The translations under genes were made by a program, and so were the position numbers. Shown here piece after piece: positions 1-19,251 of a DNA stretch of 64,000 nt. The notes beneath the pieces are model-generated. The model ran no database searches, was not told the DNA's origin, and was given only the letters and a program-made list of their open reading frames with translations. This DNA comes from Pseudogymnoascus verrucosus (taxonomy: Eukaryota), in assembly GCA_001662655.1 (NCBI GenBank), contig KV460226.1. The stretch is one strand, 5' to 3'. Within the stretch, counting starts at the first letter, position 1; the number at the start of each line of letters is the position of its first letter.

Positions 1-1208
1 GAAAGATATCGCAGGCAGAATCTCAAGTCTGAAAGGCGATGCGCCGATAACAGGGAATCCGGGAACAAGCGCAATCGTGTATAAGGAGCCATACGGTGTC
101 ATTCTAGGCATCGCTCCATGGTACTCCTCTCTCCATCTCTTCCTCTTTCCTCTCCTCTCTGGACAAAATGCAGATATATACTTACCCACCTTTCCTCTCC
201 CGAATATCCTCCACATCACGACTAACATATCCTAGGAACGCACCCTACATCCTTGGCGTCCGCTCTATTGCCTATGCCTTGGCCGCAGGTAACACTGCCA
301 TTCTCAAGGCCTCCGAGTTCTCCCCGCGCTGCGCGTGGGCCATTGCCGATTGCTTTCGTCTCGGCGGCCTCCCCGCCGGCGTTCTAAACACCATTGCGCA
401 CTTTACCTCCTCCGCAGCTGCCATCACAGAAGCCCTCATCGCCGATTCGCGTGTCCAGAAAATCAACTTCACGGGCTCTACGGTCGTCGGGCGCATCATC
501 GCCGAGACCGCAGGTCGGCACCTAAAACCCGTCTTGCTGGAGCTGGGCGGCAAAGCGCCTGTGATTGTATGTGAGGATGCGGATCTGGAAGTTGCCGCGA
601 CAGAGTGTGCGAAGGGCGCATTTATGCATTGTGGACAGGTGTGCATGAGCACAGAAAAGATTTTGGTGCATAAAGATGTCGCGGCGGCGTTTGAGGAGAG
701 ATACAGAGAGAAGGTGGTCGATATGTTTACCAAGCAGGGAGTGTTGATAAATAGGGCGGCTGTGGACAGGAATATGCGACTCGTGAGGGATGCGGTCGGG
801 AAGGGGGCAGAGGTGCTGACTGGGACCGTGGAACAAGATCATCAGCTACCGGGGACGCATATGTCACCAATAGTTGTGAAGGGAGTGACGGAGGCGATGG
901 AATTGTATAATACAGAGTCGTTTGGCCCGACGGTGAGTATTATTGAGGTAGAAACCGAGGAGGAAGCGGTACGGATCGCGAATGATACCCCATATGGCCT
1001 CACATCAGCAGTGTTCACGGAGGACCTCAGGCGCGGACTGAGGCTTGCAAAGTGCATTGAGAGTGGTGCAGTGCATATCAATGGGATGACGCTGCATGAT
1101 GAGACGATGTTGCCACATGGCGGGGTAAAATGCTCAGGTTATGGCAGGTTTGGGAGTGGAGGATTGGAGGAGTGGGTCAGGAGTAAGACGGTTACTTTTA
1201 AGAATTAG
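1..1208 (+). CDS. Aldehyde dehydrogenase (aromatic aldehyde / salicylaldehyde-vanillin dehydrogenase-like), 5' end outside window
   Basis: The exon at 1-120 (..YKEPYGVILGIAPW) is joined through intron 121-235 to NAPYILG. ALDH motifs present: INFTGSTVVG, LELGGKAP, GQVCMS (catalytic Cys), ESFGP, PYGLTSAVFT, PHGGVKCSGYGRFG. Stop at 1208. Confidence 0.93.
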
Positions 1209-1225
1209 ATAGGTGGGAAAGGCGA

Positions 1226-1480
1226 AAGCTTTCAGGAAGCTGCGACTGATGCAGCTTGATAATCATACCTTCCGTGTTTATAATTCGAAAATTCTGAGGA
1301 AGCTGCGACTGAGACTTATTTACTAATCAATCCTTCCATATCTATAACTCGAGAGCCTCGAGGAAGGTGCGACTGAGGCTTGCTTGATAATCATACCTTC
1401 CATATTTACAGCTGTAAAGCCTCGAGGAAGCTGCGACCGAGGCTGGCTTGGTAGTAGTTCCTTCCATATCCATAATTTGA
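1226..1480. repeat. Four degenerate tandem copies of a 63-64 bp unit
   Basis: The core GGAAG(C/G)TGCGAC(T/C)GA starts at 1235, 1298, 1362 and 1426. Each copy is followed ~30 nt later by CCTTCC. Confidence 0.85.
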
Positions 1481-2102
1481 AAGTCCCCAGAGCGAAAGTT
1501 AGAAGTTGTATATGTGAGGAGATTTATTTTGGGAATGAGGATGTTATGGCCTTTCCGATGAATAATTCGCAGTTGCAGATTGTATTGAATGAATATGAGA
1601 ATGACGAATGCTAACAACGAACGTCAATAATGGCTGTGATGTAGTTTAAAGGAACAAGGTTATGTCTAACTATACGTAAGTTATGTATGCTGTACGATCC
1701 AATAGATATATTCCGCACTCCAGCACACTAACTATATACAACCCTCCACTCCCCTCCCTGTCTATCTCTACAACTTTTATAATCCTACAGACTCCGAAAT
1801 TTTAGCTTCGACAGTTCTTTTGCAGCCCTTGTTTTCCAAGCACTGTACTGGGGGTTTATTTACCACGGTTAGTACCATTATGCTCGCCAACTGCTCATTT
1901 CTGATTCTTCCTTGAAAGCAGTGTGGAGCTTTGTCAGCTTTGAATGGAATTTGACGTTGGTTATGCTGCCCACATCACCATAATGGCGGAGCGGCTCAAT
2001 AAAGATAGAGCACCACTTCAGGTCGAGAAACTAAACGAAACAGGCGTGGAAAATAGTTATTCAGATATCTATGGGTAGCTACAAACGATCTACAATACCC
2101 GC

Positions 2103-3611
2103 CTAAAGTTTTGTACCTGAGGCCGTTCTGGTCCCCGGATTTGCAATATCAATCCACTCGAATTGATCATTTAAGAAGCGATGGGCTCGTACATCGCCCG
2201 ACCTAGCATGTCCCTCAAAGTTCTCCACTCTTGCAGCGCGTCCACATAATTGGCCTAACTCGCCGCTCGCCTTGGCTGATTTTACCTCTTGATAAGTGAC
2301 AGTCTTAAGATATTTCCCAACCCACAGACCTCCCGTATATCGTGCAGCGCCTCTTGTTGGGAGTACATGGTTAGTCCCGATGACCTATTTCCCATTAGTT
2401 TTTGCTTTCTTCTTTGTTTCATATGGGGGTTCACCTTATCACCATAACTAACACAGGTCTTCTCTCCTAAGAACAGAGCTCCGTAATTCGTCATCTTCTC
2501 CAACGCTTCCCTCGGCTCCCTTGTCAAGATCTGTACATGCTCTGAAGCGTATGTATCTCCTAACTTGTACGCGTCATCAAGATTCCCTACTACAGCCACC
2601 TCTCCAAAATCTCTCCAACTCGTTCCGGCCAGCTCCCTGGTCGGCATATCTTTTAAAATCACGTCAATCAGCCTGATTACCTCCTTGCCTAGACTCTCAC
2701 TAGTCGTAATTAAGACAGCAGGCGTATCAGGCCCATGTTCTGCCTGGCTCAACAAATCCGTCGCCACAGTAAATGCATCTGCGGACTCGTCTGCAATTAT
2801 TAGGACTTCTGTTGGGCCTGCAAAAAGATCGATGCCTACCGCGCCAAAGAATTGGCGTTTAGCTTCGGCCACGAAGGCATTGCCGGGCCCAGCAATGAAG
2901 TCAACCTTTGGGATTGTGTCAGTACCGATTGCCATGCCACCAATGGCTTGCACGCCACCTAGAATGTATATTGCGTCCGCACCTGCCATGGCCATGGCTG
3001 CTACTGTAGCTGCGGGAATAGAGCCGTTGATCGGGGGCGTAAATCCCATTACGTGAGGGACGCCGGCGACTTTGGCGGTGAGGATAGTCATATGAGCAGA
3101 GGCTAAGAGTGGATAGCGACCGCCTGGAATATAGCTAGAAAGCTGTTAGTAATAATCTCTTAATTACCTCACAATAGTTGGGAGTAGGGCGCAAAGGAAT
3201 TGCCATCTATGAACAACAAAGTGTATTAGAATGGGAAATAACTTACCATCCTACGGAATTAATTGGCACGTTTTTCTGTCCCAAGAAAACTCCTGGATGA
3301 ATCTCAAGCTCAAACTCTTTTAAACTCTCCTTCTGTGCCTGAGCAAACGTCCTCACATTGTGTTGCACCTCCTTGATATCCTTGATTACCTGCTCTGGTA
3401 AACTTCTAATGATATCTTCGATATCTTCGGCAGAAAGTTTGAAGGAAGGAGGCGACCACCTGTCAAATTTTTCGGAATAGGAGCGGACGGCAGAGTCTCC
3501 ATTTTTGCGAATATCCTCGATTACTGAGCTGACAACGGATGGCACATTGGTTGGTGCGCTGCTGCTTGATGGAGCCGTGCTTAGAGATCCTGTCTTTAAA
3601 TAATGGGTCAT
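2103..3611 (-). CDS. Stand-alone histidinol dehydrogenase homolog (HisD family, HpsN-like subgroup)
   Basis: Three exons (introns 3135-3246 and 2385-2434). Motifs: GCYIPGGRYPLLAS, GGVQAIG, AGPGNAFVAEAKR, IDLFAGPTE, LSQAEHG, ASEHVQI, SYGDKVIGTNHVLPT, EGHARS. No N-terminal HisI/HisE domains. TAG at 2103-2105. Confidence 0.9.
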
Positions 3612-3798
3612 CTTGAGTGCTTTGATGTATTGGGTGGGTGGATGTCTGAATAGAAACCGACGTGAGTTGAAGCGATGGGGATAATTTTAGGGGACTTTGA
3701 GCTATATATCGATCTGAAGCCAGGGTCAATAAAATATATTAATCATAGATCATGATCATTTTCATATCGGGATTATCGTGCACAAGTTATCCGGAAGG

Positions 3799-3844
3799 TT
3801 ATGCGGGGGATGTGCGGGGGATTTATGCGGGGTTATGCGGGGTT
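3799..3844 (+). promoter_or_regulatory. Four tandem CreA/Mig1-type sites (SYGGRG) in a bidirectional promoter
   Basis: ttatGCGGGGgatgtGCGGGGgatttatGCGGGGttatGCGGGGtt lies between the HisD-like gene and SDR1. It matches the SYGGRG consensus, but binding is not demonstrated. Confidence 0.55.
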
Positions 3845-4082
3845 CATGTTGAGTATATACCAATCGGAAATCACCATTCAATTCGGGTCTTGTTTTTGCC
3901 CATATTGCCGAATATCGGATAGATGTGGACACCAACCGAGACACCACTTGGTTGTCTCCCCGCTGATGATCCCCAGAATTGTTCAAAGCAAGGGCCTTAT
4001 ATTATCTAGCTCATACGGTCTCAGTCACATATTTCCACATCATTCCTCACCTGGCCTTTACAGTGCCGACCGCCAACAGACA

Positions 4083-4892
4083 ATGACTTCAATAACTACA
4101 TCACCCTTGGCTTCTACCACATCACCTCTACCACCCCAGACGCTTGCAGGCAAGACTGCTATTATTAGCGGTTCATGTTCCGGTATAGGAGCTGAGATTG
4201 CACGCGAACTTTCCTCACGCGGCTGCGACATAGTCATCAACTACCCTTTTCCAGCTTTGGAGACACAAGCACTCGAGTTGGCCAACAGTCTCACGTCTCG
4301 AGCAATCTCTGTGTGCGCGGATATCTCGACACTTGACGGTCCTCAAACCCTCGTCGCCGCCACAGTGAAGGAATTTGGGAAGGTTGACATCCTTGTTAAT
4401 AATGCGGCAATTGCTGTTAATCTCCCGCTCGAGGAACAAACTATAGAACATTGGGACTCACTTGTAAACCTGAATGGCAGAGGTACTTTCCTTCTTACCC
4501 AAGCTGCGCTACCACATCTCTCCAAGACGGATTCAAGGATCGTCAATATCGATAGCATTTCATCTCGCGCAGCACCTGCTATGCAGACGATCTATGCCGG
4601 AACGAAAGGGATGGTGGATTCCTTTACACGATGCTGGGCTAGAGAGCTGCCGCCAAAGTATGGATGTACAGTCAACTCTGTTAGTCCGGGACCCACTATG
4701 ACAGAGGGTTTTGCGGCGGCGGGAGAATCATTCATGAAATTAATGCAGCCTACTCTTGACCTAACGCCCGTAGGGCCGCGCATGGCGAGGCCTGAGGAGA
4801 TTGCGTTCGCGGTAGGGTTTCTGTGTGAACCTAGGGCCAGTTGGATTAATGGGCTCAACTTGACAGCAAGTGGGGGGTTATTTATTGATTGA
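4083..4892 (+). CDS. Short-chain dehydrogenase/reductase (classical SDR)
   Basis: Single exon from ATG 4083 (MTSITTSP). Motifs SGSCSGIG, ILVNNAA, YAGTK (YxxxK), VNSVSPGPTMT. Confidence 0.9.
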   Translation: MTSITTSPLASTTSPLPPQTLAGKTAIISGSCSGIGAEIARELSSRGCDIVINYPFPALETQALELANSLTSRAISVCADISTLDGPQTLVAATVKEFGKVDILVNNAAIAVNLPLEEQTIEHWDSLVNLNGRGTFLLTQAALPHLSKTDSRIVNIDSISSRAAPAMQTIYAGTKGMVDSFTRCWARELPPKYGCTVNSVSPGPTMTEGFAAAGESFMKLMQPTLDLTPVGPRMARPEEIAFAVGFLCEPRASWINGLNLTASGGLFID

Positions 4893-5232
4893 TTATATAG
4901 ATTACTTACCTGGCATATGATATAAACATCGAAGCATATTATAACAACTTGTTAAGCCTGAACCGCATTAGCATGGGCTCAAAGGTAGAGCTGACAGTAG
5001 TAAGAGAGAAACACTCAACTTGAGTAACTATGCAAACTAGAAAGCGTCGGGTTAGGACAGCCTCTGGATGCGGATAAGGTACTGCTCATAGTTAAATTAC
5101 CGAATACAAAAATATATAAGCTCGATGGTATTCTGTTTTTAGAAAAATATCTTCTTCGTCAACTTTATCACCCAAGAAGCAATACCTATCTCAAAAATAA
5201 TATGTAACGTCGCTCTCATTTTCGGCAACTTT

Positions 5233-7282
5233 CTATGCTGTAGGTATAATGGGAAGAGTAACATAATTCTCCAACTCCCTTCCAAAATGCAGGTGATTTT
5301 GCCCCATAAACTTCCACCTTGGCCTATCCGCCTCACTATTATGTTGGAAGACCCCACAACCCTGCGTATCTCCACTGGCTACTTCAAGCATAATTCTCCC
5401 TCCCTTCTCAACCACGACATTCGTTGGCCAGATCTCGACATCCACCTTATACACCTCTCTTGCTTTGACTTGTTCCACATCTGTAGAAACATATTCTCGA
5501 TGTATCAAGTAACTTCTGTGTCTCGGGTGCTTTTCGTGAACTTTTCGCATCGAGCAGCGTAACCAGCCTTTGGTTAATGGGACACCGTCGCCCGCTGTAC
5601 CGGTATACAACACCTCTTCCCCACTAGGATCGATGTGTCGAAGTGTAAGAAAAAGATCAATATCTTTCTCCAACATAGCGTCCTCACTGGTATCAGGAGT
5701 CATGCTGACATTTAAATGCGCAGTAACATGGCCCGTTATTTCCGTTTGTTTCTCAAACGGCCTGGTCTCAAATCTGACACCGTGGAAATCATCTATTGAT
5801 CCTAAAGCATCATAAGTCAACTTTACCTCCTCTGTTTCCTTTGAGGGAGTCGTGGATAGTTCCTTTCTGGATGTGAGGAAGTATTTCGTGTATTGAGTGT
5901 GAGGGAGTGGCCATGCGGTTTCGGTGCGTTTAGTGTATGCGGACTCTGCAACAGCATCGTTAAATCCCAAGTTGCCTTTGCGAATGGTTATAGTTACAGG
6001 CGGGACTTTTCCTGGTGTGGACCAGCCGTAGGTATCTTGGCCTTTTAGGAAGGCGTCGAAGAATGACTTTTGGATCTCGACTTCATTATGGTAGCTATAC
6101 AACACTGTTAGCTAGCCCTTGGTTCCCTGTAAGTACGAAAAGGGGTTGAGGTTGGAGATGAAATCAAAACACTATTAGCCGCTCAAATTGGGTTGATATG
6201 TTTGCGGCTTGTATTAGATTGCTCGGACAGAGAGGAAAGAAGAGGATAGACCGACTAGAATGGGAGGTCATGTCGACCGGTAATGAAGCGCAAATATTTG
6301 AATTTTGAGCCCGCTCTCACATAACCCTCGACATTTCCTCTCAAATGTAAAAGAATACCACCCCAGTTGGCCACAGACAGTAGTGGAACCTCGATATCCT
6401 CTAAATTGAATTCCTTGCTGGCATAGTACTCATCGTCCCTGAATCTATTTGCTTCGTTGTCTTCAGTTTGGTCCATGCGATTCTTCCTAAGAATATCTTC
6501 TGATAAATCACCCTCAATGGTATCTTCTTGGCCACGGGCACCAGGCCCATCTGGAGGGAATGTGAGTTTTGAACGTCCAGGCTTGCCGTATTGATTCACG
6601 AGAACCTGACGGTTCCACCAAAAGTCGACGAATTTATTGGATAGTATTCCACCGTGGCGGCATCGATCGCGATAGTAATCCGACATTCCCTCCCAAGGAA
6701 TTATAGCAGCCAAACCTTTTGGTCTCCGCGCAGCAACTCGCCATTGACTTCCTAGCCTAGAGTTTAGCACTTGAGTAAATAAAAGTATTGGGAGGGTATG
6801 AGCGTACCGGCATAATAACTAATCCCTAATAAACCAACCTTTCCGGTACTCCACTCTTGCTCTGCAGCCCATTCGACCACATCAAAGAAACACTCACTGG
6901 TTCCTCGGCTCATCGTATCCAGCAACCCTGGACTCTGTCCCAGACCCCTCTCATCAGCACGCACAACAATGTAGCCTCGCGCAGTCCAATACACGGGGTC
7001 TGGAGTCTCCCATGCGCTGTATTTACTTTTATGCTCAGGATTCACTTCGTTGAACGAGCCCTTGAAAAAAGTGGCGTAAGGGATGTCCTTTCCGTATGGT
7101 CCGTATGTAACCAGCACTGGGAATTTATTGCCATTTTCGGTACTTAGAGGTAGATAGACGTTACAGCGGACAGGTAAATCCGACTTTTTAAGAGGGATTG
7201 AGACATTTTTTTCGAATATGAGGCTGTTTTCCTCGTCTCTGTGCACTTCTTTGATGTCTCTAATAATATTGGTTTCCGCCAT
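5233..7282 (-). CDS. CocE/NonD family alpha/beta serine hydrolase (peptidase S15-like) with C-terminal PepX-like domain
   Basis: Three exons (introns 6752-6807 and 6095-6255). Motifs: GPYGKD, WETPDP, DERGLGQSPG, WSTGKVGLLGISYYAG (nucleophile), GRHDLPFY, and C-terminal GWLRCSMRK / VEIWPT. Confidence 0.9.
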
Positions 7283-7781
7283 TTAGTCGATAGAGTTGTA
7301 TTGTCACAATTGCTCTTTGTATCGGGAGGAAGAGATGGTCTGGGAATCAGTCGATCGTATACTCTTATCTTATTATAATGCGCTGGTATGGACTGGACGT
7401 CCTCTGAACCCCTCTACAAATGATGTGGGGTCGGAATGGTGTGGGGGTGGACTTTTTCGGGTTCGCTGGGAAATTTCCATGTCGGGTTTAACTTGGAGGG
7501 GCCGAGCCGAACGAAAACTACTTTGGAAATGCGAACCATTATCATTTTACTGGATAGTATTGTACCAAGATGGTTCATGGGTACTGTAGTGCGATATCGT
7601 ACATTCCCCATCGCTATCATCCGAAACACGCTATGTATTAATATAGAGACTACTCATATATCGAATTCCCGAGTCCTTATAATTTCCATAAAAATCGACT
7701 TTATTATTCTTAACACCAGCTACTAAGATCTCTTTCTACATTTCCAATCTTAGAATATCTTCCTCATCCTCGTTGTTAACC

Positions 7782-8459
7782 ATGGGTCCACCGCCACCAA
7801 CATCAACAGACGTACCACCAGCTTCTACTCGTGGTCTCTCTCACCCAAAACGCTTCATCACCGACCATGACAGTGATGGAAATGCGATCTTTAGTACAGC
7901 ACTCCCGGAGGAAATCCCTTTCCAGCAAATACCCAACGATGCCATCTTTTCGCTATGCTACGCAACGAACGAGTCACCGGTATTGTTAAATGACAATGCG
8001 GATGTTAATGTATATTCCAGTATGCAACCCATCTCACACGAATTATTATTTTCTGCGATGAGATGAAAAGTATGTCAGGTTTGTGTTGCTAATTTGGTAC
8101 AACTTTTAGACTACCTACACAACCTTCCTGGTGTAATGATCCCTGGTGGCACTGTTCTGCGCCTGGTGGACTTGCCACCAGGCGCGACATCGCCCATGCA
8201 CCGTACCGTCTCGCTCGACTATGGTGTAGTGCTAGAGGGCGAAATTGAACTCATCCTTGATAAAGGTGCTACTCGACTGATGAAGCGTGGTGATATGAGC
8301 ATACAGCGTGGCACTATACACGCGTGGAAAAATGTAGGGGCGGAGGGCAAGTGGGCTAGAATGTTGTATATTTTACAGGAATGTAAACCATTAGAAATTG
8401 CTGGCCAGGAACTTGGGGAGGATTATGGTGGATTACAGGTTCCTAAGAGTCGGAACTGA
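7782..8459 (+). CDS. Small cupin-domain protein
   Basis: Two exons (intron 8020-8109). Motifs KRFITDHD, SPMHRTVSLDYGVVLEGEIEL, QRGTIHAWKN are typical of small fungal cupin_2 proteins. Confidence 0.85.
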
Positions 8460-8711
8460 TGGAAATATCTTCATAAAGATTTAAATCGATTTTTGCTTTA
8501 CACCCATTTAAAGGCCATTGTGATCATCTTCATGTGACAAATGCCACGTGTACGAGAAACCTCGTTGGACAGCCTTACTATCAAATTGAAATCTAACTCG
8601 CTTCTTGTTGGCTTTGTTAACGTTATATGAACCGCTAAAATGTAAAGGTATTTGCAGCTTGAAAATCATGTTATTTAATTTTAAAGCTATGCCCGTTGTC
8701 TGAACTAAATC

Positions 8712-11120
8712 CTACTCGATTCTCCTCGCAGTACTAACATCCGGCACCCCAGTACCTTCCACCACCTTCGCACCCACGACCTCGTAAATTGGAATATCTG
8801 CAAGCACAGTCACAATATGATGTAATGTGGGTAGTGCATCCAAATCCAACTTGTCAAAGCTAACGCTAGCCTTTGCCGGCTTCGCAACGCTCTTGACCGT
8901 CGATGGCACCACTTTCGACTCTTCTTCATGAGGGACCACGATTGGATATTCACAGTCTGATTTTCCTCTCATATCTTTACCTACCGCAGGAATATATTTG
9001 TATGTCAGGATTCCGTAGTCGGACTCCCCGCCTATTGTCCCCATTTCTGTCGCTGGATCGGTAGCTAAGAGACCTTCAAGGTTGAAGTCGCAGAATTTAG
9101 CGCCTTGCCACGACGCCTGCATACGATATGATTCGGATCGACGATGGATATCGATTGCACAGTATACCTTAGGCATTCCTAGGTCTTCCCGGCCAGATAT
9201 TATTGGGTCCGCTAAACTTTCGAATAGGAGGGGCATGTATGTTCCGTCAATGATCGTCCCATCTCGCTTGGTATATTGGACTCCGTGGATGTATAATCCG
9301 AAGTGATTGTACCCGCCACCACCTAACCATGTCATGTTTCCCAGAGTAGTAGTCGAGAAACTCGCATATGCCACGGAACCAGGGGACTTAAAGCGAAACG
9401 ATTCGGTTGGAAACAGGTTCTTCAGAAATGTTGCGGAGGTTCGAAATTTGATAGATGCCGTAAGGAACGTTTGATCTAGGCTGGACCTGGGGTTGCCCCA
9501 TATGTCTTGTCTCGGGCCAGGTGCAGGGCCGAACGCAATCGGCATGCGGTAGTAGAGTTCCGGATGTTTGGCGCGTCGCCATTTGAGGAAAATGTTTGTT
9601 GAGTTGTCAAACTCGTCATGGCCAAAGTTGTAAGCTGTGTATTTCATCACTATGGTTTCTTAGTAAGGCAATGACAAGACGTGGGAGAGTGGGTGACAAA
9701 CTATCAATAGCAGGCTTTCCATCCACGCAGTCAACACCAGCCTGTCGAGAGTAATCTTGGATGTTGTTTGCGCGTTCATAACGAATTTGCTTATAGAGCT
9801 TAAGTCGCTCTGGTACCTCTTCAGGTTGAGTGCCTAAGGGAAGGACCACTGACAAAGTGGCTCCGTCTTCCAAGGCAATTCCTGCACCTTGTCCTTGATC
9901 TGTTCTGGTTAGTATACAAAAGTACATTTATTCTTGTAAGATCTTACGTGGTAAGAAAGGATGTGCGGCATCTCCTAATACTGCCATCTTCCCTTTGATC
10001 CATGTTGGCATGACCTCCATATCCAGGAGCTTCCAAACTTTCAAACTGGTTGGATCGGCTTTTTTGAAAAGTGATAGTAACTTTGGATCAAAGTCTCGGT
10101 ATACTTTCAGAAGGTCATCTATAGAGGCTTGCTTATTCCATTCTTCTTCATATTAGCAACTTCATTAGTAGAGGCTAAGAATGAACACATACCAGTAGTG
10201 CCACCTTGTGATTCTCCTTCGGGATGAATGCAGACGAAATTTAGTAGTTCGTTATTATCACATGGGTAAACCACAACACGTCTATCGGCCCCGTACCAAA
10301 TAACCAACTCATTGTCATTTTCGAGCAGTCCTTTTATCTCGGGATCTGCACTGGCAAGTTTTCGGGGAATAAGGAATCTGAATGCAGCTTTTCCTGACCC
10401 AAAGAGCTTGTTAGGTTGCCCGGTAATACATTCTCTGGTCTTAGACTGTATGCATCGTCAGCAACAATTCGCTAGACTAAAAGTAGACTCACATATATGC
10501 CATCTGCCCCTAATATCAAATCTGCCTGTATTTTGTCTCCCCCTTCCAACGTGATCGTCGCATTTTCTGTATCAACTGCCAATACCTTACTCGACAAGTG
10601 AAGCTCTGCAGGTCTTCCTTTCCCATCCTTTCCAGTCGCGATCTGCTTTAACTTATCATGTAGTTTAACACGGTGCACCAACATCCATGGATGCTGCCAT
10701 ATCTTGTTCTGTTCTCTCAGGTCAACCTTTCTTGTCTCGACGCCCTTTTCGTTGTATTCAGCCAAGCGCGACATTTCCACAGCACCAAACTCCTCTGCCA
10801 TGATGCCATAACGGCGCAGGATACCATTAGAATTTGGAGCAAGATGAATTGCAGCACCGACCTCTGATGCGAATTGGGATTGTTCATACAACTATAAACT
10901 GTAAGTATAGGAGGGTTGATACATGTCAATGTGGGGACTTTACAGAGACATTGTGCCCAGCCCTGCGTAATCCAATGGCAGCACCTAGCCCACCAATACC
11001 AGCGCCTACAATAGCAATATCAAGACCCTTCCGGCTGCATTCTCCGTTAACCCCGCCAGTGTCGCCATTCACTACCACAGCCATGGTGGTATTCGCGGCG
11101 TTATAGAATTTGGTCGCCAT
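8712..11120 (-). CDS. FAD-dependent monooxygenase (salicylate hydroxylase-like) fused to a C-terminal acetoacetate decarboxylase-like domain
   Basis: Six exons. Motifs IVGAGIGGL, LILGADGIYS, VLGDAAHPFLPHQGQGAGIALED. Intron 9650-9701 joins it in frame to YRMPIAFGP...ISGREDLGMPK. Start could be ATG 11120 or 11084. Confidence 0.88.
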
Positions 11121-11586
11121 CGCTCCTGTACTTTAAAATATTCAAGGATTGCAGAGCAAGATTGGGTCAAGTGTGCTATATTCTGCTCGTATGTGATGAG
11201 AGACAGATGGACGCGGTCTTTAATTAGTAATTTATTTTCAAGCAGGCTATGAATACTCGGGCACCGGGGTGGCCTGCCATTCCCGTCGGCTCTCCACATG
11301 GACGCCCATGCAACGTCAGGCACCAGTCCTTCAAGTTGATAAAGGCTAGAACAATTACAGTCATCGGGATTGTGGGGGATCGCGTGGCGACGGCAGGAAT
11401 GTGGGGGACAGGAACATGGGGCTAGTGGTGTCGGCCGCGGCAACGCTTGCGTGTTGTCGGCTCCGGGTCGGCTGGTAGGCCTAAACACTGGTTTTGAAAA
11501 GACATTGAAGACAGAAGATGGGGATAATGGTCTAATCATATTCGAGACAATGAACTTGATAATTATTCCTACGACACTCACGCCTC

Positions 11587-12599
11587 ATGTCAGCACCATT
11601 AGTAGTCCTCATAACCGGCGGCTCTGCTGGCCTAGGCGCTGCCACCGCACGAGTTTTTGCCAAAGCTGGCATGCGAGTGATAATCAACTATTCTACTAAT
11701 GAATCACGTGCGAATACTCTGATTGAACAATTACACCAGATCTCTCCTTTATCGAAGACCAAAGAATGTCAGAATTTCGTTTCGGTTCGTGCGGATCTGT
11801 CTAAAAAGTCCGACATCGAACACTTGGTCACAGAATCCGTATCGCAAATGGGAAAATTGGATGCTGTCTTCAGTAATGGGGGATGGACTGCAATACAGGA
11901 TTTCAATGATCTAGATGATAATGTCGATGAGGAGATGTGGGATAAATGTTGGAATATGAATGTGAAGAGTCATCTGTGGTTGATGCGTGCCGCCAAGAAA
12001 TACCTCGATGAGAGTGAAGGGGTATTTATCACCACGGCGAGTTTGGCTGGAGTGAGACCAAGCGGTAGTTCGTTGGTATGAGAATTTCTAATGCGTAGTT
12101 TATATTTCTTTGTCTATATTTAGAGATTCAACTAGACTAACAGTTTATCTATAGGCATATTCTGTTACAAAAGCAGCACAGATCCATTTAGCTAAATCTT
12201 TGGCTGTGATTTGCAGTCCTAGAATACGGGTGAACTCTGTTTCCCCTGGAATCCTCCTTACAGTCTGTTTCGCATAAATTTTACCGCTTTTGGCTGAAAA
12301 CTAATGGATGGTAGGATTGGGGTCTAAAATTTCCTCAAGAACGGCTTGATTCAGCGATGGCAAAAGCTCAATTAAAAAGATTTGCTACGGTTGAGGTAAA
12401 TTATCCATCCTTCGCTCTTTTGTCGAAATTATCCACGATTCAACAATTCTGAGAACTCGTTGACTCGTGCGTGTTGAAAAATCGTGATTAGTTGCTGATT
12501 TAGCCAATATAGGATGTTGCGGAACAGGTTTTATGTTTTGTAAGAAGCCGAAGTGTGACGGGTGCAAATGCGGTAATAGATGCTGGGTGGTCTCTATAG
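11587..12599 (+). CDS. Short-chain dehydrogenase/reductase
   Basis: Four exons. Motifs ITGGSAGLG, SGSSLAYSVTK (YxxxK), VNSVSPG, VTGANAVIDAGWSL*. Stop at 12597-12599. Confidence 0.88.
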
Positions 12600-12696
12600 T
12601 ATTTGCCTATATATCTCAATGCTCAACACTTACCTGCGCCATGTATTCGAAATGAGAAATAGTGTAGTAAATAATTTGATATTATGATCTCTAAAA

Positions 12697-14314
12697 TTAG
12701 ATTTTAGACCAATTCTGGTTATCTAATCCTCTTGTCCCAGATATATCTCCATCGTCCAGATACCCACTAACCGTTCCCTTTGGATCCCACTTTCTCCTCA
12801 GTTTCATCAACTTCTCCGCTGCCTCATCTGTCCAAAATTTCGTCGTCCTGATCTGAAAGTCCGAATCCCCAAGATAAGCACCCTTAGACATCGGTGCGAC
12901 ATCCTTCATAATATTATTAACCCACCCTTTACACCTCACGTCATCCTCTACATTCTCCCAAACCGTATACAATGCAAAGTAGTGGTCACTTTGCATAGTG
13001 CACGCCATATCTGGCAATGGTCTTCTACTCATAGGAGCCATTGAAAACCAAAGCGCAAAACTCTTCGGATGGGGAAGTGTTGTAAATGCCTTCTCCAATA
13101 CAGCAGTCACATCCACATCATCGTTTATATACGCGTTCTCGGTGCAGTAGCGATGATTTGACGGATTTGCCTTGGCCTGGTCCTGGTATTGATCGGCGAC
13201 GCTGGTAGGTTGCGATATAACTTCGACTATGGCTCCAGCCGGATGAGAGTCGTTTAGTGGTCGCAAGGCTTCGCAGGCTGCAGATTCAGATTCTTGGAAT
13301 GTGACAATATGTACCATTATACAGATTTCGTCAATTCCTTCGGGTATGAGACTTACGGCTACGATTTCGTTGCCTGGGTCAGATGTGGGTGAGGCCTAGA
13401 AGATTTTGTTAGGTCCAGAATGTTTCGTTATGTCAACCAAAAGGAAAGGAATGGAGTATGCGTGTATATAATATACGAAAGTGGATAAGTGGCGTAATAG
13501 GAGTAACAAAGAAATTGTTGTTACCTTAATAACCCAATCCATCACGATTTTATACTCAGAGATCGGATATATGAATGTAGACCTATACATGGCTGCAGGC
13601 TTCGGGCGGACGTTTAGATAAAACCTTGTGACAATTGCTGGAAACCCTGTAGTCGTGTTATAAAGAACAGTTCTATTAAGGTACCAGATATAATCTTACC
13701 TGGCCCAGCACCTCGAGCACACCATAAAAGTTCTGCATTTTCAGTCTCGTTGCAGTGTAGGATTTCACCAGCAGCAGTCACAACATCAAGGCCGACGATT
13801 TGCTCGCAAGCCCATCCCCAATTCTAGATCTCTCCGTTATTAAATGATTGAAAGTTCCGTAAACGAGTCGTACCTTGCAATTCCACCCCATTCCACCTTG
13901 CAGCAAGAAACCACCAATCCCAACATCAGGACAGTGCCCACCCCCAAACATGAAGCCCCTCTTTCCAATAATTTCATTGAGCATAATTCCTGTAGTACTT
14001 GGTGACGCCTTTACGATTCTCTTGCTCTCATCAAGCTCAACTTCGTTCAGGCCCTCCAAGTCAATGAGAATTGCGTCATCACGAACACTCCATGCTGCCC
14101 AGCTGTGACCCCCAGACCTCACCGATACTCTGCATTGTAACTGATTTGCCAATTGAACAGCTTCTTGCACATGCGATGGGTGGGTTACTTTAACTATCGC
14201 TCGTGGATACCGATTCGGTTTTATGGCATTAAAAACGCGATCGACACGTTCTTTTTCGTAGACATTGGCGTCGGCGGAATCTCTCCAGGTGATGAACATT
14301 GCGGGAGTTGCCAT
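12697..14314 (-). CDS. FAD-linked oxidase (FAD_binding_4 / berberine-bridge / 6-hydroxy-D-nicotine oxidase-like)
   Basis: Four exons. Motifs VSVRSGGHSW (flavinylation His), GGHCPDVGIGGFLLQGGMGW, LLWCARGAGPGFPAIVT, LRRKWDP. Confidence 0.88.
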
Positions 14315-14774
14315 TGTGAGGATTTAATCTGACAGTATAAATGATATGATGAAAATCAATTGCTTGAGGTGTCCTTTTAAGATATTTTAATTGCTTTCTG
14401 CAGCTAATGGGATGAAATCGTCAAATCCTAGAGCCTCGGGGCCCATACTGTGAGTTTCCGAGATCGGCTCCCCCACACCCCACAGTTTCGTTAGAACCCC
14501 CCTGTCAATAATCCCCCGCATTCCGATCGTGCGGGGTGCGGTAACTCGACTCGGCATTAGTGAGCTTCCCCAGTTTCTCCCAGACGCGTTTACCTCTCTA
14601 CTCACTTTGGAACTTAAATACTCATTCCATCACCCGAGTTCTCGGTGGCCTAGACCCCATGAACTATTACCTTACTAAAGTTTATTTTGGTTGCCTATAT
14701 TATCTAGTCGGAAGATCGTCTTACACCTAGACCGAAAAGCACTGTAGTTGCTGCCCCATCGACAAGCCTGCGCA

Positions 14775-16723
14775 ATGTCAGGTACAACAGAACCCATTCG
14801 GACGAATGATGGAGCCAAGGAACCACTTACGAAAATCCAAACCCTTGGGAGTGTCCGCCAGCGCGACGAGCACACCAATGAGATCATCCTTATTCCGACT
14901 CCTTCACGGGATCCCAATGATCCCCTAAACTGGTACGTGTGGCATCTATTTTATATCAATTCAACTGCGCTCATTAATGTATGTACTAGGAGCCAGAGAA
15001 GGAAGTACTACATGGCGACCCTGATTTGTATCGCAATGTTTATGTGCAATTTCCTCGCAGCTGGGCCAACCGTCTCTATTATTGAAACTGCGATGGACTT
15101 TTTCCCTACAGCTGGCCGAGCTGGCATGCCTGGTGCAATTGCGAAGACTGCTTATTTCTTTACTACCACTGCACTACTCCAAGGCACCGGCAATATCTTG
15201 TGGATGCCGTTAGTTAACAAGTATGGACGACGACCCATATACCTCGCAAGCTTTTCCTTGTACTTTGCCACTGCGCTCTGGCTCTCCTTCACAACGTCTT
15301 ACGCTAGCTTCTTGGCTGCTCGTATATTGATGGGGTTTTCTGCTGGCGCTGCTGAGACTATGGCCCCTTTGTCTATTGCTGACGGAAAGTTAATCTATCC
15401 CCCATGTGCTAGATTACTGGCTCATTATTATAGTATTCTTCCTTCATGAACGTGGAGCTGTTATGGGGTAAGTCCAAATCCCAACCCATCAACATGAAAT
15501 AATTATTGAACATAGATAGTATGTATTCGTCAGCTCTTTCATGTGGTGTTGCAGGAGGTATCATTATTTCTGGGTAAGTCTATATCCCAAAATTGTTAAT
15601 GATACGCTCCCTCCCCATCTTATAACATAACAACTATATATGGAAACTACATATCAAGTCCTCTTGAAAGTTCCTAACAACAGCCAGACTCATCACCATT
15701 CACAACACCTGGCGCACCATCTATTATGTAGCAACTGCTTTAATAGGCGCTCTTCTGCTCCTCGTTTTTTTAACCTTCCCCGAAACAAGCTACAACCGAG
15801 ATCCTTCTATGGTCAACATCTCCGAGGCATCACTCGCACAGGAAAAACCTGGCTGCTCCGGTGAATATTTGGAGTCCGAGAGTATCCCAGCTACCCCAAA
15901 ACGCAAGTCCTACCTACAAGAACTCAAAATATATTCTGGGACCTATACGTCGGAAAAACTTTCCCATCTTTTTATCCGGCCACTTGCTCTGATAATTCTT
16001 CCCCCGGTGTTATGGGGCTCCCTCGTCATGTCAGTCACCATCGGGTTCCTGGTGGCAGTGACATCCAACGTCGCACCAGCGTACAATACTGCATACGGAT
16101 TTCAGCCGTGGCAAACCGGTCTCTGTTTTTTCTCTGCCATAGTCGGCTCACTGGTTGGCATATATATGGGAGGGCATTTGACCGACAAGATGGCAGACTG
16201 GTTCACGAAGCGGAATGGCGGCCTCAGAGAACCCGAGATGAGGTTACCAAGTATTGTGGTTAGTTTGATTACCACGCCACTTGGATTGGTTCTATTTGGG
16301 GTTGGAATCCAGTACAAACTCCATTGGATGTGTCCTACCGTTGGCTTGGGACTACGTAAGTTGTCACATATGCGCTCTGCCAGCTAGCTGCTAACTTGCA
16401 AAGTAAATTTTTCAATCGTCCAAGCAACAAATGTTTCCCTTGTCTACACTATCGACTGTTATCGCCCTATTGCAGGCGAGGTTACCGTTACATCCATGGC
16501 ATTGAAATCTTGTTTCGGCTTCTTACTTTCTTTCTACACCAATCCTTGGATTGATAAGGTTGGGTATTTAAACGCTTATGGGACTATGGCTGGTATCTCT
16601 GTGGCAGTCCTGCTGTGTGGTATACCTCTTTACATCTTTGGAAAGAAGATCAGACATGCATCGTGGAATTGGGGCATGGTTAAGGTAGTGCATTGGAATG
16701 ATGATAGAGAGGTTGGTGAATGA
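14775..16723 (+). CDS. Major facilitator superfamily transporter
   Basis: Multi-exon. Motifs LIPTPSRDPNDPLNW, KYGRRPIY, IAD/VFFLHERG, FPETSY, RNGGLREPEMRL, plus multiple hydrophobic segments. One intron requires a GA donor (see findings). Confidence 0.88.
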
Positions 16724-17008
16724 GGTCAAATCCACCTACTTATTTATTCTACATATCGAATGCCAATATAGCAGCCGGTTTTGCTCCTCGCCAGAAATAA
16801 AATTTAAGTGCACTCTCCCTTAGCATCGATATCGTCGTCAATTTTTTAGATTCATTTAGCTATCATTAGCTGCTCGTAGACCCGCAATCTCCACATAAAG
16901 CAGGACAGGAGCGGAAAATCTTTCTGACGCCAATCAGTATCAAGACAGATTCGAGCAATACTCCCCAAAGTATAGGTGCACGCAAGTACCTACCCGACTT
17001 TCTGTTGT

Positions 17009-19251
17009 TCACAACGATGTGATACAGCCATCTAAAGCCCACTGGAAGACCTGGAAGTATGCCCAAACGCTGCCTTGTCGAGATTTCCAATACCCTGCCA
17101 AAAGGTCATGCGTGGTCAAGATTTGCTCGCGCCACCCCTGTGGCATCTTGATGTGTTCGATCGCGTTGGGTTGCAGCTCATGCCGCGCTCTATCCGCAGC
17201 CAGCAAAATTAGGGCGCACGTCGTCGAATTTGGCAGCTGGAACCAAAGACCATGATGGCGGTACTGTGGCGGTACTGCCTGAAGACGGAACATGCAGTAC
17301 TGTAAGCCTTGAGATGCAATACCGCCGACCTTGGCGAGAAGCTCAGATGGCATATTACTCAAGTCGTTATTTATTACGAGCTCAACGAATGGTCGGCAGC
17401 ACAGTTCACGGATGCCGAGGTAGCGAGCTCGGAGAAGCTGGTTGATCTCGTCTTCCAATGGCTGTATGGTGCCGAATGGATGTGGAAACTTGATGCTCGG
17501 TGGCAGGGATAAGTACCAATCATTAACCTGAGTTTCGAACATCTCGAGGTCTCTAAGCATCCTCTCAATCCCAGCTGCTGAAGGGTCGAGTATTTTCAAC
17601 TGAGTTGCCTCTATAATTCGATTTATAAGATGTCGACAGGCAATCTCCGCAAGGTAATAGTACCAAGTCCTTCTCTCACCATGGATGTCCTCACCTACAA
17701 CCAGTTCGCGGTCAATGTTTGGTGGGAAGGGGAATGTGTATGGGTAATCCATCCTTTCGAGAATAGACTTTGGCAATGACAATTCGATTGTAAGCTCACT
17801 AGAAGCATGTTAGTTCTGGATTTTCACTGTAGATGGGCTTAGACGACCAAATTTTAGTATAGTTCATGATATAGAAGGAATATGATTATTGATGGTATCA
17901 GACTAATATAGACCAACTTACCACTCTGATTTGAAACACGTGAAGTATAGACTTTGCTCACGGGTCAACGACTGTTCTTGTCCATACTCATTGTCAGTTG
18001 CCATAAAAGCAAGTCTATATGAAAAGGTCAGCATGGGTAAGACGAGGCAAGACCGGAATATAGCACCTTGAGTTAGTCATAGAGTACCAAGTATTACTCG
18101 CAAGAGCGAAGTACTTCCATCCTTGCAAAGGTTGCATGTTACACATGTACCAAATTCTGTTGCTGCTTTAGTTGTCATAACAAGATACTATTTTGTAGTT
18201 CCTGTAAAGGAGAGAGTGATCAGATCATACATACCCCGTTAGACATAAGCATTGTACAGATTCTATGTTATTCTGTCCAATGACGAATCCAAGTCGCTTC
18301 ATTGCAATATCCCAGTATTTGAATGCCTCATCATGTGGCAAACAGGACCCCGAAATCCTGTCTGGTGTGTATGCATGGGTATACTCTTCCGAAATGGCTC
18401 CTAGGGCGCAGACCATGGAGACCAAACACGTCCGCGCCGACCAGTCGAGACCATGCTCAGCTACCTGGGAGATCAAGTCATGCAGAGTTACTAGGTCGAG
18501 AATCGGATTTTTGGCATGGACACAAGCAATGTATTTTGCTTCTAGCCTCGATAATTCGCATAATTCTAAACTAGGCAGCGAACTTTGTTGTGGGTAACTA
18601 ATATCGTCATCGACCATGGCTATCGAGTGTGGGCATGGTTGTGGAAAGACTCTCCACTTCAGCACTGAACGAAGGTTTGTGGGGAAAATATTTTGTAGAA
18701 GGCGATTCGTATCTCTCTCAGGCAGGCGTTCATCAGATTTGGTAGTTTTATAATAGTTATGACGACAGGTAGGCCTATAATTCTGTTGAATATCCTCGTA
18801 GGCGCCTGGTGAAGGTAACAAGTTTTGCTGATGGCATTGTTGCACCTGCTGGTGCTGGAAAAGATCTTTAATATGCTCAACTACCTGAAGCAGTTGAGGC
18901 ACGCCGTTGATATGTCTAATAAAGTAAGTAAAGGTATCAAGGGTTGGTAGGGGTTGGAATAGGCAGTGTAAAGCCGCCTACTAAAGGGAAAACACACAAA
19001 ATGGCCGCCTCGTCATCGTTAAGATAAGAACAAGTGGCACCGACCCTGGAACAATAACTGCATGTTGGTCTTAGGTTATCACACTTAGTCTTTCTATTCC
19101 TGCATACTTCACAAGCTGTGGGACCCCGTATGGTAGGCCTAAAAGGTCGAGATGTCTCCGAAATCTGATCCGCAAGCATCGCGGAGGCTCCGCGACGCGT
19201 TCCAATGCGTGCAGCTTTAGAAGGGCGAGAAGTAGGTGACGCTTCTTCCAT
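17009..19251 (-). CDS. Zn(II)2Cys6 transcription factor with fungal TF middle domain
   Basis: Binuclear cluster ACEVCRNRKTKCDNLRPTCSYCSRVGATC. Later exons VHAKNPIL, SVQCLCLTG, FTCFKSE, WYYYLAEIACRHLINRI can be spliced in frame with GT-AG introns. Confidence 0.9.

What the first reader, a model, noticed from the sequence alone, without database searches (positions are those of the whole stretch)
1..19251. Candidate undescribed 10-gene fungal metabolic cluster with its own transporter and regulator but no backbone synthase in view
Seen: ALDH, HisD-like dehydrogenase, SDR, CocE/NonD hydrolase, cupin, FMO-ADC fusion, SDR, FAD oxidase, MFS and Zn2Cys6 TF lie contiguously, with no housekeeping gene between them and nearly all frames intact. 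Known: ester/amide hydrolysis, flavin hydroxylation, alcohol-to-acid oxidation and Schiff-base decarboxylation are typical catabolic steps. Inference: this is a co-regulated pathway degrading one esterified or aromatic/heterocyclic substrate, and I do not recognise the gene set as a characterised pathway. Alternative: tailoring genes of a biosynthetic cluster whose PKS lies left of the window, since cupin + SDR + FAD oxidase sets also occur in fungal salicylaldehyde polyketide clusters.
Basis: partly seen in the sequence, partly recalled or inferred. Interest (0 to 1): 0.8.

Follow-up and report, generated by a model that had tools for sequence, protein, structure and literature searches.

The report
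Duplicated fungal aromatic ring-cleavage gene cluster
These ten genes are the right-hand part of a 14-gene, apparently co-regulated fungal cluster whose core is present twice in this genome and recurs in distant moulds; it most likely encodes an uncharacterised route for opening and breaking down an aromatic plant compound that is still unidentified.

Summary
The ten genes are real, contiguous and can all be spliced to intact frames. The cluster is larger than reported: a small unknown gene, a catalytically dead ALDH, a LigB/DODA-type ring-opening dioxygenase and a C2H2+Zn2Cys6 transcription factor lie just left of the window. No PKS or NRPS match lies on this contig. A paralogous core (FMO-ADC, LigB, cupin, CocE, dead ALDH, small gene, dual-finger factor, plus fumarylacetoacetase) sits on contig C12, and pieces of the core are adjacent in Eurotiomycetes, Sordariomycetes and Leotiomycetes. 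The HisD-like dehydrogenase is linked to the core only in Leotiomycetes. Both clusters share a promoter 12-mer (7 of 17 genome-wide copies), which points to the dual-finger factor, not the in-window Zn2Cys6 gene, as regulator. Best reading (0.68): a catabolic regulon in which a peripheral arm oxidises an alcohol side chain and the core hydroxylates, meta-cleaves and dismantles the ring. The substrate is not determined; flavonoid A-ring breakdown is a testable candidate (0.2). No description was found in ten literature searches, though a computational survey with unreadable supplements may list it.

The parts
1..1208 (+). Aromatic-aldehyde dehydrogenase (488 aa; starts 373 bases left of the window at G000:C21:371627). 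Left of it, outside the window: dual C2H2+Zn2Cys6 factor (C21:367851-370952, -), LigB/DODA dioxygenase (366393-367335, -), catalytically dead membrane-anchored ALDH (364479-366092, +), small unknown gene orfX (about 363906-364211, -)
   Evidence: Pfam Aldedh; best PDB hits salicylaldehyde and vanillin dehydrogenases 6qhn, 9ihb, 4jz6; LELGGK and GQVC intact; left arm
2103..3611 (-). HisD/HpsN-like Zn, NAD+ four-electron alcohol-to-acid dehydrogenase; neither histidinol nor DHPS dehydrogenase by signature
   Evidence: Closer to HpsN (384 bits) than to HisD (248 bits); motif GRYPL, Zn and catalytic residues kept; a second, 40% identical match in an 826-aa frame on C1 is taken to be the housekeeping His4
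3801..3842 (-). Four CCCCGCA half-sites in the HisD-like/SDR1 divergent promoter (no full 12-mer)
4083..4892 (+). Short-chain dehydrogenase SDR1 (269 aa, single exon, YAGTK)
5233..7282 (-). CocE/NonD serine hydrolase (610 aa, GISYYA nucleophile); core gene
   Evidence: two splice joints; paralog on C12 53-84% identical by exon
7424..7446 (-). Two half-sites, one a longer-spacer variant of the 12-mer, in the CocE/cupin divergent promoter
7782..8459 (+). Monocupin (195 aa); core gene
   Evidence: Cupin_2; best PDB 3es1 and 8x0u; paralog on C12 49%; merged with FMO-ADC or CocE in gene models of other fungi
8712..11084 (-). Group A flavin monooxygenase fused to an acetoacetate-decarboxylase-like domain (about 707 aa); core gene
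   Evidence: Schiff-base Lys invariant in 26 of 26 aligned rows; fold search ranks 3cmb, the Streptomyces aldolase-dehydratase 4zbo/6eej, then ADC 3bgt
11366..11406 (-). Two near-matches of the 12-mer (1 and 2 mismatches) in the FMO-ADC/SDR2 divergent promoter
11587..12599 (+). Short-chain dehydrogenase SDR2 (YSVTK)
12697..14314 (-). VAO/BBE-family FAD oxidase (475 aa, RSGGH); no close solved relative
   Evidence: 38-39% identical over its length to a bacterial protein lying two genes from a HisD-like gene in a ring-cleavage operon
14514..14525 (+). Exact CCCCGCATTCCG site in the FAD-oxidase/MFS divergent promoter
14775..16723 (+). MFS transporter
   Evidence: the C12 cluster has only a distant MFS (24%)
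17009..19251 (-). Zn2Cys6 transcription factor TF2 (605 aa); membership uncertain, may serve the block to its right
   Evidence: no match in the 36 kb C12 region
20304..31472 (.). Adjacent block, membership not shown: sugar transporter (20304-22111 +), GH3 beta-glucosidase (22824-25620 -), GH78-type rhamnosidase (26267-about 28724 -, apparent frameshift), sugar transporter (about 29729-31472 +)
   Evidence: one 2-mismatch motif site at 20075, no half-site upstream of GH3, GH78 or the second transporter

Best explanation
A self-regulated catabolic regulon for a plant-derived phenolic, in two tiers. Regulation (inferred): the C2H2+Zn2Cys6 factor left of the window binds CCCCRCATTCCG, a G-rich half plus a CGG triplet, in the divergent promoters. 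Peripheral arm (inferred from families): FAD oxidase, the two SDRs, the HisD-like enzyme and the aromatic ALDH oxidise an alcohol or diol side chain through the aldehyde to the acid. Core (inferred): the FMO hydroxylates the ring to a catechol; the LigB/DODA dioxygenase opens it extradiolically; the seco-product, probably closed as a pyrone or lactone, is opened by the cupin and the CocE hydrolase; a fumarylacetoacetase (in the C12 copy, so in trans for this copy) cuts a beta-diketo acid; the ADC-like domain removes CO2 or does a retro-aldol through its Schiff-base lysine. Shown: genes, order, intact frames and active-site residues, duplication, co-location in other fungi, shared motif, no PKS/NRPS on the contig. 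Not shown: any reaction, the order of steps, the substrate. Within this reading I put about 0.3 on a C6-C2/C6-C3 phenolic with an alcohol side chain, 0.2 on a flavonoid or chromone A-ring, 0.18 on another aromatic or N-heterocycle.
For: Intact LigB with His11/15, His52, His173, His213 and DODA/YgiD as best solved relatives. Paralogous cluster on C12 with 7 of the C21 core genes (24-84% by exon, MFS distant) plus fumarylacetoacetase. Adjacent in other classes by tags or merged gene models: FMO-ADC+cupin in 4 of 120 hits, CocE+FAH in 6 of 120, CocE+cupin and CocE+cupin+dual-finger factor in Aspergillus, orfX+CocE in 2, dead ALDH+LigB in 1, FMO-ADC+dual-finger factor (49%) in 1; CocE next to FMO-ADC in 3 Penicillium genomes. 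Motif: 7 of 17 exact genome-wide copies lie in the two clusters (0.17% of the genome); 3 of the 13 copies not used to define it fall in 36 kb of C12 (binomial P about 5e-7); 12 half-sites in 1,932 bp of the four window promoters against 0.34 per kb in flanks. ALDH nearest to salicylaldehyde/vanillin dehydrogenases. Bacterial relatives in ring-cleavage operons: ADC-like gene between a VOC dioxygenase/FAD hydroxylase and FAH (1 of 5 viewed); CocE beside fahA or directly after an extradiol dioxygenase (2 of 4 viewed); HisD-like+FAD oxidase+SDRs with catechol 2,3-dioxygenase, FAH and FMO in one Meiothermus genome.
Against: No expression condition, knockout or assay exists. CocE and FMO-ADC were linked in only 4 of 15 non-Leotiomycete genomes where both were listed, and HisD-like and FMO-ADC in 0 of 7 (paralogs may have been compared). 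Linkage of SDR1, SDR2, FAD oxidase, MFS and TF2 was not tested outside one close relative. The window alone shows no significant motif excess (2 sites with up to 1 mismatch, 15 of 100 shuffles as many), and the HisD-like/SDR1 promoter has half-sites only; the half-site also fits the CreA repressor site (recalled). The FMO lacks the His of the HxxxY motif of its nearest solved relatives (Arg in 107 of 120), so its reaction cannot be copied from them. Only 7 of 80 bacterial HisD-like loci are ring-cleavage operons and the fungal clade is not sister to them. This copy has no FAH.
Confidence: 0.68

Rival explanations
1. Patchwork: the core is a real ring-cleavage unit, but the ALDH/HisD-like/SDR/FAD-oxidase arm (and TF2, MFS) serves a different substrate, for example a small diol or sugar acid, and was only inserted into the same island in Leotiomycetes.
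For: The C12 copy lacks all of these genes; HisD-like is unlinked from FMO-ADC in 7 of 7 non-Leotiomycete pairs; most of the 80 bacterial HisD-like loci sit with LacI-type regulators, aldolases and transporters, and the closest one with context (L073) with hydantoinase-like genes.
Against: The arm is interleaved with core genes through shared divergent promoters (FMO-ADC/SDR2, dual-finger factor/ALDH); exact or near 12-mers lie before ALDH, SDR2, FAD oxidase and MFS; HisD-like stays within 8 tags of CocE or FMO-ADC in 7 Helotiales genomes outside Pseudogymnoascus.
Confidence: 0.16
2. A synthase-free biosynthetic or detoxifying route: the FMO and DODA-type dioxygenase turn a host or endogenous phenolic into a ring-opened pyrone or pigment that is exported, rather than into carbon for growth.
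For: The dioxygenase's nearest solved relatives are 4,5-DOPA dioxygenases of betalain synthesis; cupin, SDR, FAD oxidase and FMO families are common in fungal biosynthesis (PMC13463297, PMC12720273, passages); this copy lacks FAH.
Against: FAH travels with CocE in the C12 copy, in 6 of 120 fungal hits and in Variovorax; hydrolases and a retro-aldol/decarboxylase domain dominate the core; no transferase or prenyltransferase among the 14 genes.
Confidence: 0.12
3. Tailoring genes of an alkyl-salicylaldehyde or epoxyquinoid cluster whose PKS or prenyltransferase lies nearby or acts in trans.
For: Two SDRs, a cupin and an FAD oxidase are present; salicylaldehyde pathways use HR-PKS + two SDRs + cupin (PMC13463297, passages).
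Against: 0 of 31 KS and 0 of 25 condensation matches lie on C21, and none on C12; 50 kb to the left and 20 kb to the right hold no megasynthase frame; the cupin's conserved partners are CocE and FMO-ADC, not a PKS.
Confidence: 0.04

Closest known systems
Bacterial fde (naringenin, Herbaspirillum) and ifc (isoflavone, Variovorax) A-ring meta-cleavage clusters (PMC11069340: passages, one section, supplement search)
   Same: Same logic and gene types: group A FMO, extradiol dioxygenase, hydrolase, cupin (FdeH/IfcD, which acts on a hydroxypyranone), FAH-family enzyme, MFS. The fungal cupin is 30-33% identical overall (39-42% over the barrel) to cupins in 3 fde-type metagenome loci.
   Different: Dioxygenase is LigB-type, not VOC; hydrolase is CocE, not FdeB; the FMO is only about 25% identical to the FdeE-type FMO of locus L070 and carries an ADC domain; no Rieske or cyclase gene. 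FdeH and IfcD themselves were not compared.
Fungal 1,2,3,5-tetrahydroxybenzene (gallate) cluster (PMC10832562, passages)
   Same: Conserved fungal aromatic catabolic cluster of FMO, FAH-like gene, short unknown protein, MFS and factor, outside the five classical central pathways.
   Different: Its ring-cleaving gene is DUF3500; the main text has no LigB, cupin, CocE or acetoacetate; no DUF3500 among our genes.
Aspergillus niger vanillate pathway VdhA/VhyA/MhdA/OmeA (PMC8336404, passages)
   Same: Aromatic ALDH, flavin hydroxylase, ring-cleaving dioxygenase and a downstream esterase.
   Different: MhdA is homogentisate-dioxygenase-like and OmeA a carboxylesterase; no ADC domain is mentioned; our FMO has Arg where decarboxylative hydroxylases have His.
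HpsN, R-DHPS 3-dehydrogenase (PDB 8v35, 8wwe; PMC11382572, passages)
   Same: Closest characterised relative of the HisD-like gene; Zn ligands, Glu/His catalytic pair, Asp352 and Lys353 equivalents kept; SDR partner next door.
   Different: Lacks the sulfonate-binding His126 (GRYPL, not GRYA/SH); no sulfonate pathway genes.
Aromatic ring-opening dioxygenase (ARD) cluster models of Gluck-Thaler and Slot (10.1101/184242, outline and Results)
   Same: Computationally detected fungal clusters anchored on this kind of dioxygenase, several enriched in plant-associated fungi.
Alkyl-salicylaldehyde clusters vir/str/palt (PMC13463297, passages)
   Same: Two SDRs, cupin, BBE-like oxidase, MFS, factor.
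   Different: No HR-PKS on the contig; LigB, CocE, ADC and HisD-like genes are foreign to them.

Membership tests
HpsN (DHPS 3-dehydrogenase) | G-R-Y-A/S-H motif with sulfonate-binding His126 | tested here: not met
   GRYPL in the window gene and in 111 of 120 hits
HpsN/HisD fold enzymes | Zn ligands Gln/His/Asp/His and catalytic Glu-His pair | tested here: met
   QAEH, SEH, GDK, EGH aligned to CpHpsN
HisD (histidinol dehydrogenase) | G-S-A-P-L motif; role as the genome's histidine enzyme | tested here: not met
   GRYPL; a separate copy in a long frame on C1
LigB/DODA class III extradiol dioxygenase | PF02900 domain with conserved metal-binding histidines | tested here: met
   the mapping of His residues to YgiD numbering is recalled
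ADC-like superfamily | ADC fold and Schiff-base lysine | tested here: met
   Lys161 invariant in 26 rows, motif in 114 of 120 hits, model pLDDT 79, Foldseek E 7e-21 to 3cmb
True acetoacetate decarboxylase | Decarboxylation of acetoacetate rather than aldolase-dehydratase chemistry | tested here: inconclusive
   Uncharacterised 3cmb ranks first; aldolase-dehydratase and ADC score alike at 14-16% identity
Decarboxylative phenolic-acid hydroxylases (8x38, 8r2t, 8gsm) | His-x-x-x-Tyr in the substrate strand | tested here: not met
   Arg in 107, Lys in 5 of 120; that this His matters for the reaction is recalled from NicC/3HB6H work
fde/ifc flavonoid clusters | VOC-type A-ring dioxygenase (FdeC/IfcB) | tested here: not met
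   LigB-type instead
fde/ifc flavonoid clusters | FdeE/IfcA-type monooxygenase | tested here: not met
   24.7% to the PRK06847 FMO of fde-type locus L070, used as a stand-in
fde/ifc flavonoid clusters | FdeH/IfcD-type cupin and FAH-family enzyme | tested here: inconclusive
   Cupin matches cupins in 3 of 80 loci of fde-like content; FAH only in the C12 copy; FdeH/IfcD sequences not available
fde/ifc flavonoid clusters | Induction by and turnover of flavonoids | not testable with these tools
   no condition-labelled expression data
Alkyl-salicylaldehyde clusters | HR-PKS in the cluster | tested here: not met
Alkyl-salicylaldehyde clusters | SDRs orthologous to VirB/VirD, cupin to VirC/StrC | not tested
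   sequences not at hand; that 8x0u is StrC is recalled, not confirmed
Epoxyquinoid clusters (aty/bis/pan) | Prenyltransferase or PKS plus epoxidase | tested here: not met
   none among the 14 genes
Gallate/THB cluster | DUF3500 ring-cleavage gene | tested here: not met
Active aldehyde dehydrogenase (for the left-arm ALDH-like gene) | Catalytic Cys and Glu | tested here: not met
   GQVC aligns to GASP and LELGGK is deleted

The most novel reading that the evidence does not exclude
The core is a widespread, unrecognised fungal meta-cleavage (extradiol) pathway that does in fungi, with unrelated enzymes, what the bacterial fde/ifc genes do: hydroxylate and open the flavonoid A-ring, open the lactone (CocE, cupin) and decarboxylate the beta-keto acid (ADC domain) to the arylbutenone seen when Penicillium rubens destroys naringenin, for which no genes were found; it is switched by a dual C2H2/Zn2Cys6 factor reading a composite 12-base site.
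Probability: 0.2. Interest if true: 0.8.

Novelty: new variant of a known kind. Interest (0 to 1): 0.62.

Why it matters
The fungal central pathways for aromatics listed in PMC10832562 (catechol, protocatechuate, hydroxyquinol, homogentisate, gentisate, and the new tetrahydroxybenzene route) do not include a LigB-type meta-cleavage route. A conserved, duplicated, self-regulated cluster built round one would add a further route for plant phenolics in soil and root fungi. It gives named genes, a candidate activator and a candidate binding site, so the substrate can be found by one overexpression or deletion experiment. It also offers candidates for the unknown naringenin-degrading genes of Penicillium (10.1101/2023.09.18.558247), and first functions for three families that databases misname: FMO-ADC ('salicylate hydroxylase'), fungal CocE ('X-Pro dipeptidyl-peptidase') and the GRYPL dehydrogenase ('histidinol dehydrogenase').

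Tried and rejected
Literature: six of ten searches returned nothing (combinations of acetoacetate decarboxylase, histidinol dehydrogenase, CocE, cupin, salicylate hydroxylase, vanillic acid, FdeH, and six homolog locus tags); one search gave three papers that were not opened; some searches gave the comparison papers. Supplement searches of two Aspergillus terreus transcriptome papers found none of the terms, which is uninformative. Supplements of bioRxiv preprints are closed; those of 10.1101/184242 could hold this cluster as an ARD model. Expression: no RNA holder on record was listed; TF2 was almost uncovered in the contigs laid, which is no evidence either way. ESM Atlas gave no usable hit for orfX. 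A single-sequence fold of a cupin homolog failed (pLDDT 32). Exact look-up of SDR1 found nothing. The ten motif copies outside the two clusters were fetched: two lie in long frames, the others sit by unrelated genes, and the control pattern gave 7 hits, so most are probably chance; no downstream regulon emerged. A direct fde ancestry for the HisD-like gene was rejected by the tree (21 fungal rows form one clade, SH-aLRT 100, joined to L006/L073/L007/L008/L010; 77 of 80 loci used, quick method, midpoint root). Membership of the GH3/GH78 block was not supported by the motif. Class-wide bacterial searches for the FAD oxidase were not run; one scan found 8 loci, only the Meiothermus one close. No complex prediction was sent, as no binding is claimed.
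Full report
Setting. The window is G000:C21:372001-436000. The nearest named homologs are from Pseudogymnoascus at 96-98% identity, so the organism is a Leotiomycete of or near that genus.

Observation. The ten genes are there as described. A coordinate-based splice search gave stop-free frames with GT-AG introns for 10 of 10. Contigs of run X1 (RNA is the tool's guess) skip five predicted introns at GT-AG ends, X4 (same study) three of them, while X6 runs unspliced through 1379-19500 in one 35.9-kb contig of a relative. FMO and ADC are one protein in all 120 listed long hits, several encoded on contigs of about 2.3 kb, so the fusion is real.

The cluster is larger. The ALDH begins 373 bases left of the window. 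Beyond it lie a 966-aa C2H2+Zn2Cys6 factor, a LigB dioxygenase whose best solved relatives are 4,5-DOPA dioxygenases and YgiD, an ALDH-like gene without catalytic Cys and Glu and with a C-terminal hydrophobic anchor, and a small unknown gene, orfX. Further left come an unknown frame, a HET gene, a sugar transporter and housekeeping genes.

A second copy. The ADC domain has two more matches in G000. The one on C12 lies in a paralogous cluster at about 330.7-355 kb: FMO-ADC (39%), a distant MFS (24%), orfX (39%), dead ALDH (39-47%), a transposase remnant, LigB (72-84%), dual-finger factor (27-52%), a rhodopsin-domain membrane protein, fumarylacetoacetase, cupin (49%), CocE (53-84%) and a P450. 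The order orfX / dead ALDH / LigB / factor is the same in both. The 36 kb read hold no match to the HisD-like gene, active ALDH, either SDR, FAD oxidase or TF2. I did not model the C12 genes for intactness. The third FMO-ADC, on C6, has no other cluster gene within the 10 kb read.

Other fungi. No fungal genome could be read directly, so I used locus tags, contig lengths and merged gene models. In Pseudogymnoascus the HisD-like gene and FMO-ADC are four tags apart in 10 of 11 genomes listed for both (one of them near-identical to the window and perhaps not independent), and CocE is two tags from HisD-like in 11 of 12. In Helotiales, HisD-like is within 8 tags of CocE or FMO-ADC in five Cadophora genomes, a Mollisiaceae isolate and Cudoniella, shares a contig length with CocE in three more, and is on another contig in Tricladium. 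Merged models show adjacency across classes: FMO-ADC+cupin (4 of 120), CocE+FAH (6 of 120), CocE+cupin in many Aspergillus, CocE+cupin+dual-finger factor in A. arachidicola, orfX+CocE in Seiridium and Colletotrichum, dead ALDH+LigB in Achaetomium, FMO-ADC+dual-finger factor in Cudoniella. So there is an old, shuffled core and a Leotiomycete-limited link to the HisD-like gene. The linkage of SDR1, SDR2, FAD oxidase, MFS and TF2 was not tested beyond one close relative.

A shared promoter element. Reading the C21 promoters by eye gave CCCCRCATTCCG. G000 has 17 exact copies (control pattern 7); four are in C21 cluster promoters and three in C12 cluster intergenic regions. The C12 copies are out of sample: 3 of 13 in 36 kb, binomial P about 5e-7 under a uniform background. 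In L001, 5 sites with up to one mismatch stand against 0.06 expected (0 of 200 shuffles); in the window alone 2 against 0.62 is not significant (15 of 100). All four divergent promoters inside the ten-gene block carry at least two CCCCRCA half-sites, 12 in 1,932 bp against 0.34 per kb in flanks. A G-rich half next to a CGG triplet fits a protein with C2H2 fingers and a Zn2Cys6 cluster (inference from recalled binding preferences), and that factor is the one both clusters share. The half-site also matches the CreA site (recalled), so carbon repression may explain part of the excess. TF2 is divergent from a sugar transporter, GH3, GH78 and second transporter block and may belong there.

Enzymes. 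The ALDH is nearest to salicylaldehyde and vanillin dehydrogenases. The FMO is nearest to decarboxylative vanillate and 4-hydroxybenzoate hydroxylases but has Arg for their His in the HxxxY strand in 107 of 120 homologs, so it is a distinct subfamily. The ADC domain keeps an invariant Schiff-base lysine and folds like 3cmb, the Streptomyces aldolase-dehydratase and ADC; decarboxylase and retro-aldolase cannot be told apart. The HisD-like protein is closer to HpsN than to HisD, keeps all metal and catalytic residues, and has GRYPL, matching neither signature given in PMC11382572; four-electron oxidation of a primary alcohol with a neighbouring metal-binding group is the safe inference. CocE has its nucleophile and an uncharacterised nearest structure.

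Bacterial context. Of 80 metagenome loci with a HisD-like relative, 7 are extradiol ring-cleavage operons with gene types of the fde cluster (gene list from the supplement of PMC11069340), 3 carry a cupin homolog and 1 an FAD-oxidase homolog; that last operon, in Meiothermus, joins SDR, FAD oxidase, HisD-like, SDR, catechol 2,3-dioxygenase, cyclase, amidohydrolase, two FAH and an FMO. The rest are mostly non-aromatic contexts, and the fungal clade is not sister to the fde-type loci. On plasmids, 1 of 5 ADC contexts viewed is VOC-hydroxylase-ADC-FAH and 2 of 4 CocE contexts are fahA-linked or follow an extradiol dioxygenase.

Mechanism. I commit to a two-tier catabolic regulon (0.68): side-chain oxidation by the peripheral arm, then hydroxylation, extradiol cleavage, opening of a pyrone or lactone, C-C hydrolysis by FAH (in trans for this copy) and decarboxylation or retro-aldol by the ADC domain. 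All chemical steps are inferred from families and context. The flavonoid case rests on three things: IfcD cupins act on a hydroxypyranone left after A-ring cleavage (PMC11069340, section read); P. rubens degrades naringenin through a hydroxylated form, a lactone and a decarboxylated arylbutenone, and the authors found no fde-like cluster (10.1101/2023.09.18.558247, passages); and Penicillium species keep CocE beside FMO-ADC. Against it, the FMO and dioxygenase are not fde orthologs, P. rubens was not checked, and the glycosidase block is not tied in by the motif.

Novelty. Ten searches found no account of this gene set. It fails the defining tests for the gallate, vanillate, salicylaldehyde, epoxyquinoid and fde/ifc systems while working like fde/ifc in logic. 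The survey 10.1101/184242 (Results read) reports uncharacterised ring-opening-dioxygenase cluster models whose content I could not see, so the core may have been catalogued. An earlier AI note of this scan describes the same core in another mould; it is a lead, not independent support. Verdict: real, uncharacterised, a new variant of fungal aromatic catabolic clusters; interest 0.62.

Noticed in passing
window 1223-1490: Degenerate repeat of about 64-base period between the ALDH and HisD-like 3' ends; many other contigs of a relative's DNA run match it, so it is probably a small dispersed element.
   Followed up: partly
window 26267-28724: The GH78-type rhamnosidase gene appears to change frame by one base within a T-run shortly before its intron; it may be broken or an assembly error.
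   Followed up: partly
G000:C12:330686-355224 (L100, L101, L105, L106): Paralogous core cluster with FAH, a rhodopsin-domain membrane protein and a P450 whose upstream regions also carry the 12-mer; a Tc5/pogo transposase remnant interrupts it.
   Followed up: yes
G000:C6:607011-609384 (L104): Third, lone and more diverged FMO-ADC gene; the lysine motif pattern did not match its ADC frame.
   Followed up: partly
L113 (G000:C26:244543): One exact 12-mer lies between a sugar transporter, itself next to another GH78 rhamnosidase, and an amidohydrolase; may be chance.
   Followed up: partly
G000:C21:364479-366092 and 363906-364211 (L001): A conserved catalytically dead, membrane-anchored ALDH and the small orfX are divergent from one motif-bearing promoter in both clusters; a sensing or scaffolding role is conceivable but untested.
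   Followed up: partly
window 1-33000 versus 33000-64000: GC is mostly 0.41-0.51 over the catabolic island (0.54 in the first kb) and mostly 0.46-0.63 in the housekeeping region to the right, which holds an Stc1-domain gene and, by recalled resemblance only, a protein kinase, an Hsp70-like gene, a RING protein, a proteasome subunit and a phosphotransfer protein.
   Followed up: no
L092 (Meiothermus genome contig): Undescribed-looking bacterial ring-cleavage operon with SnoaL, two SDRs, FAD oxidase, HisD-like dehydrogenase, catechol 2,3-dioxygenase, cyclase, amidohydrolase, two FAH and an FMO.
   Followed up: partly
L034, L047, L051, L054, L070: Bacterial operons with fde-like gene types that also contain a HisD-like dehydrogenase and an SDR, which the described fde gene list lacks.
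   Followed up: partly
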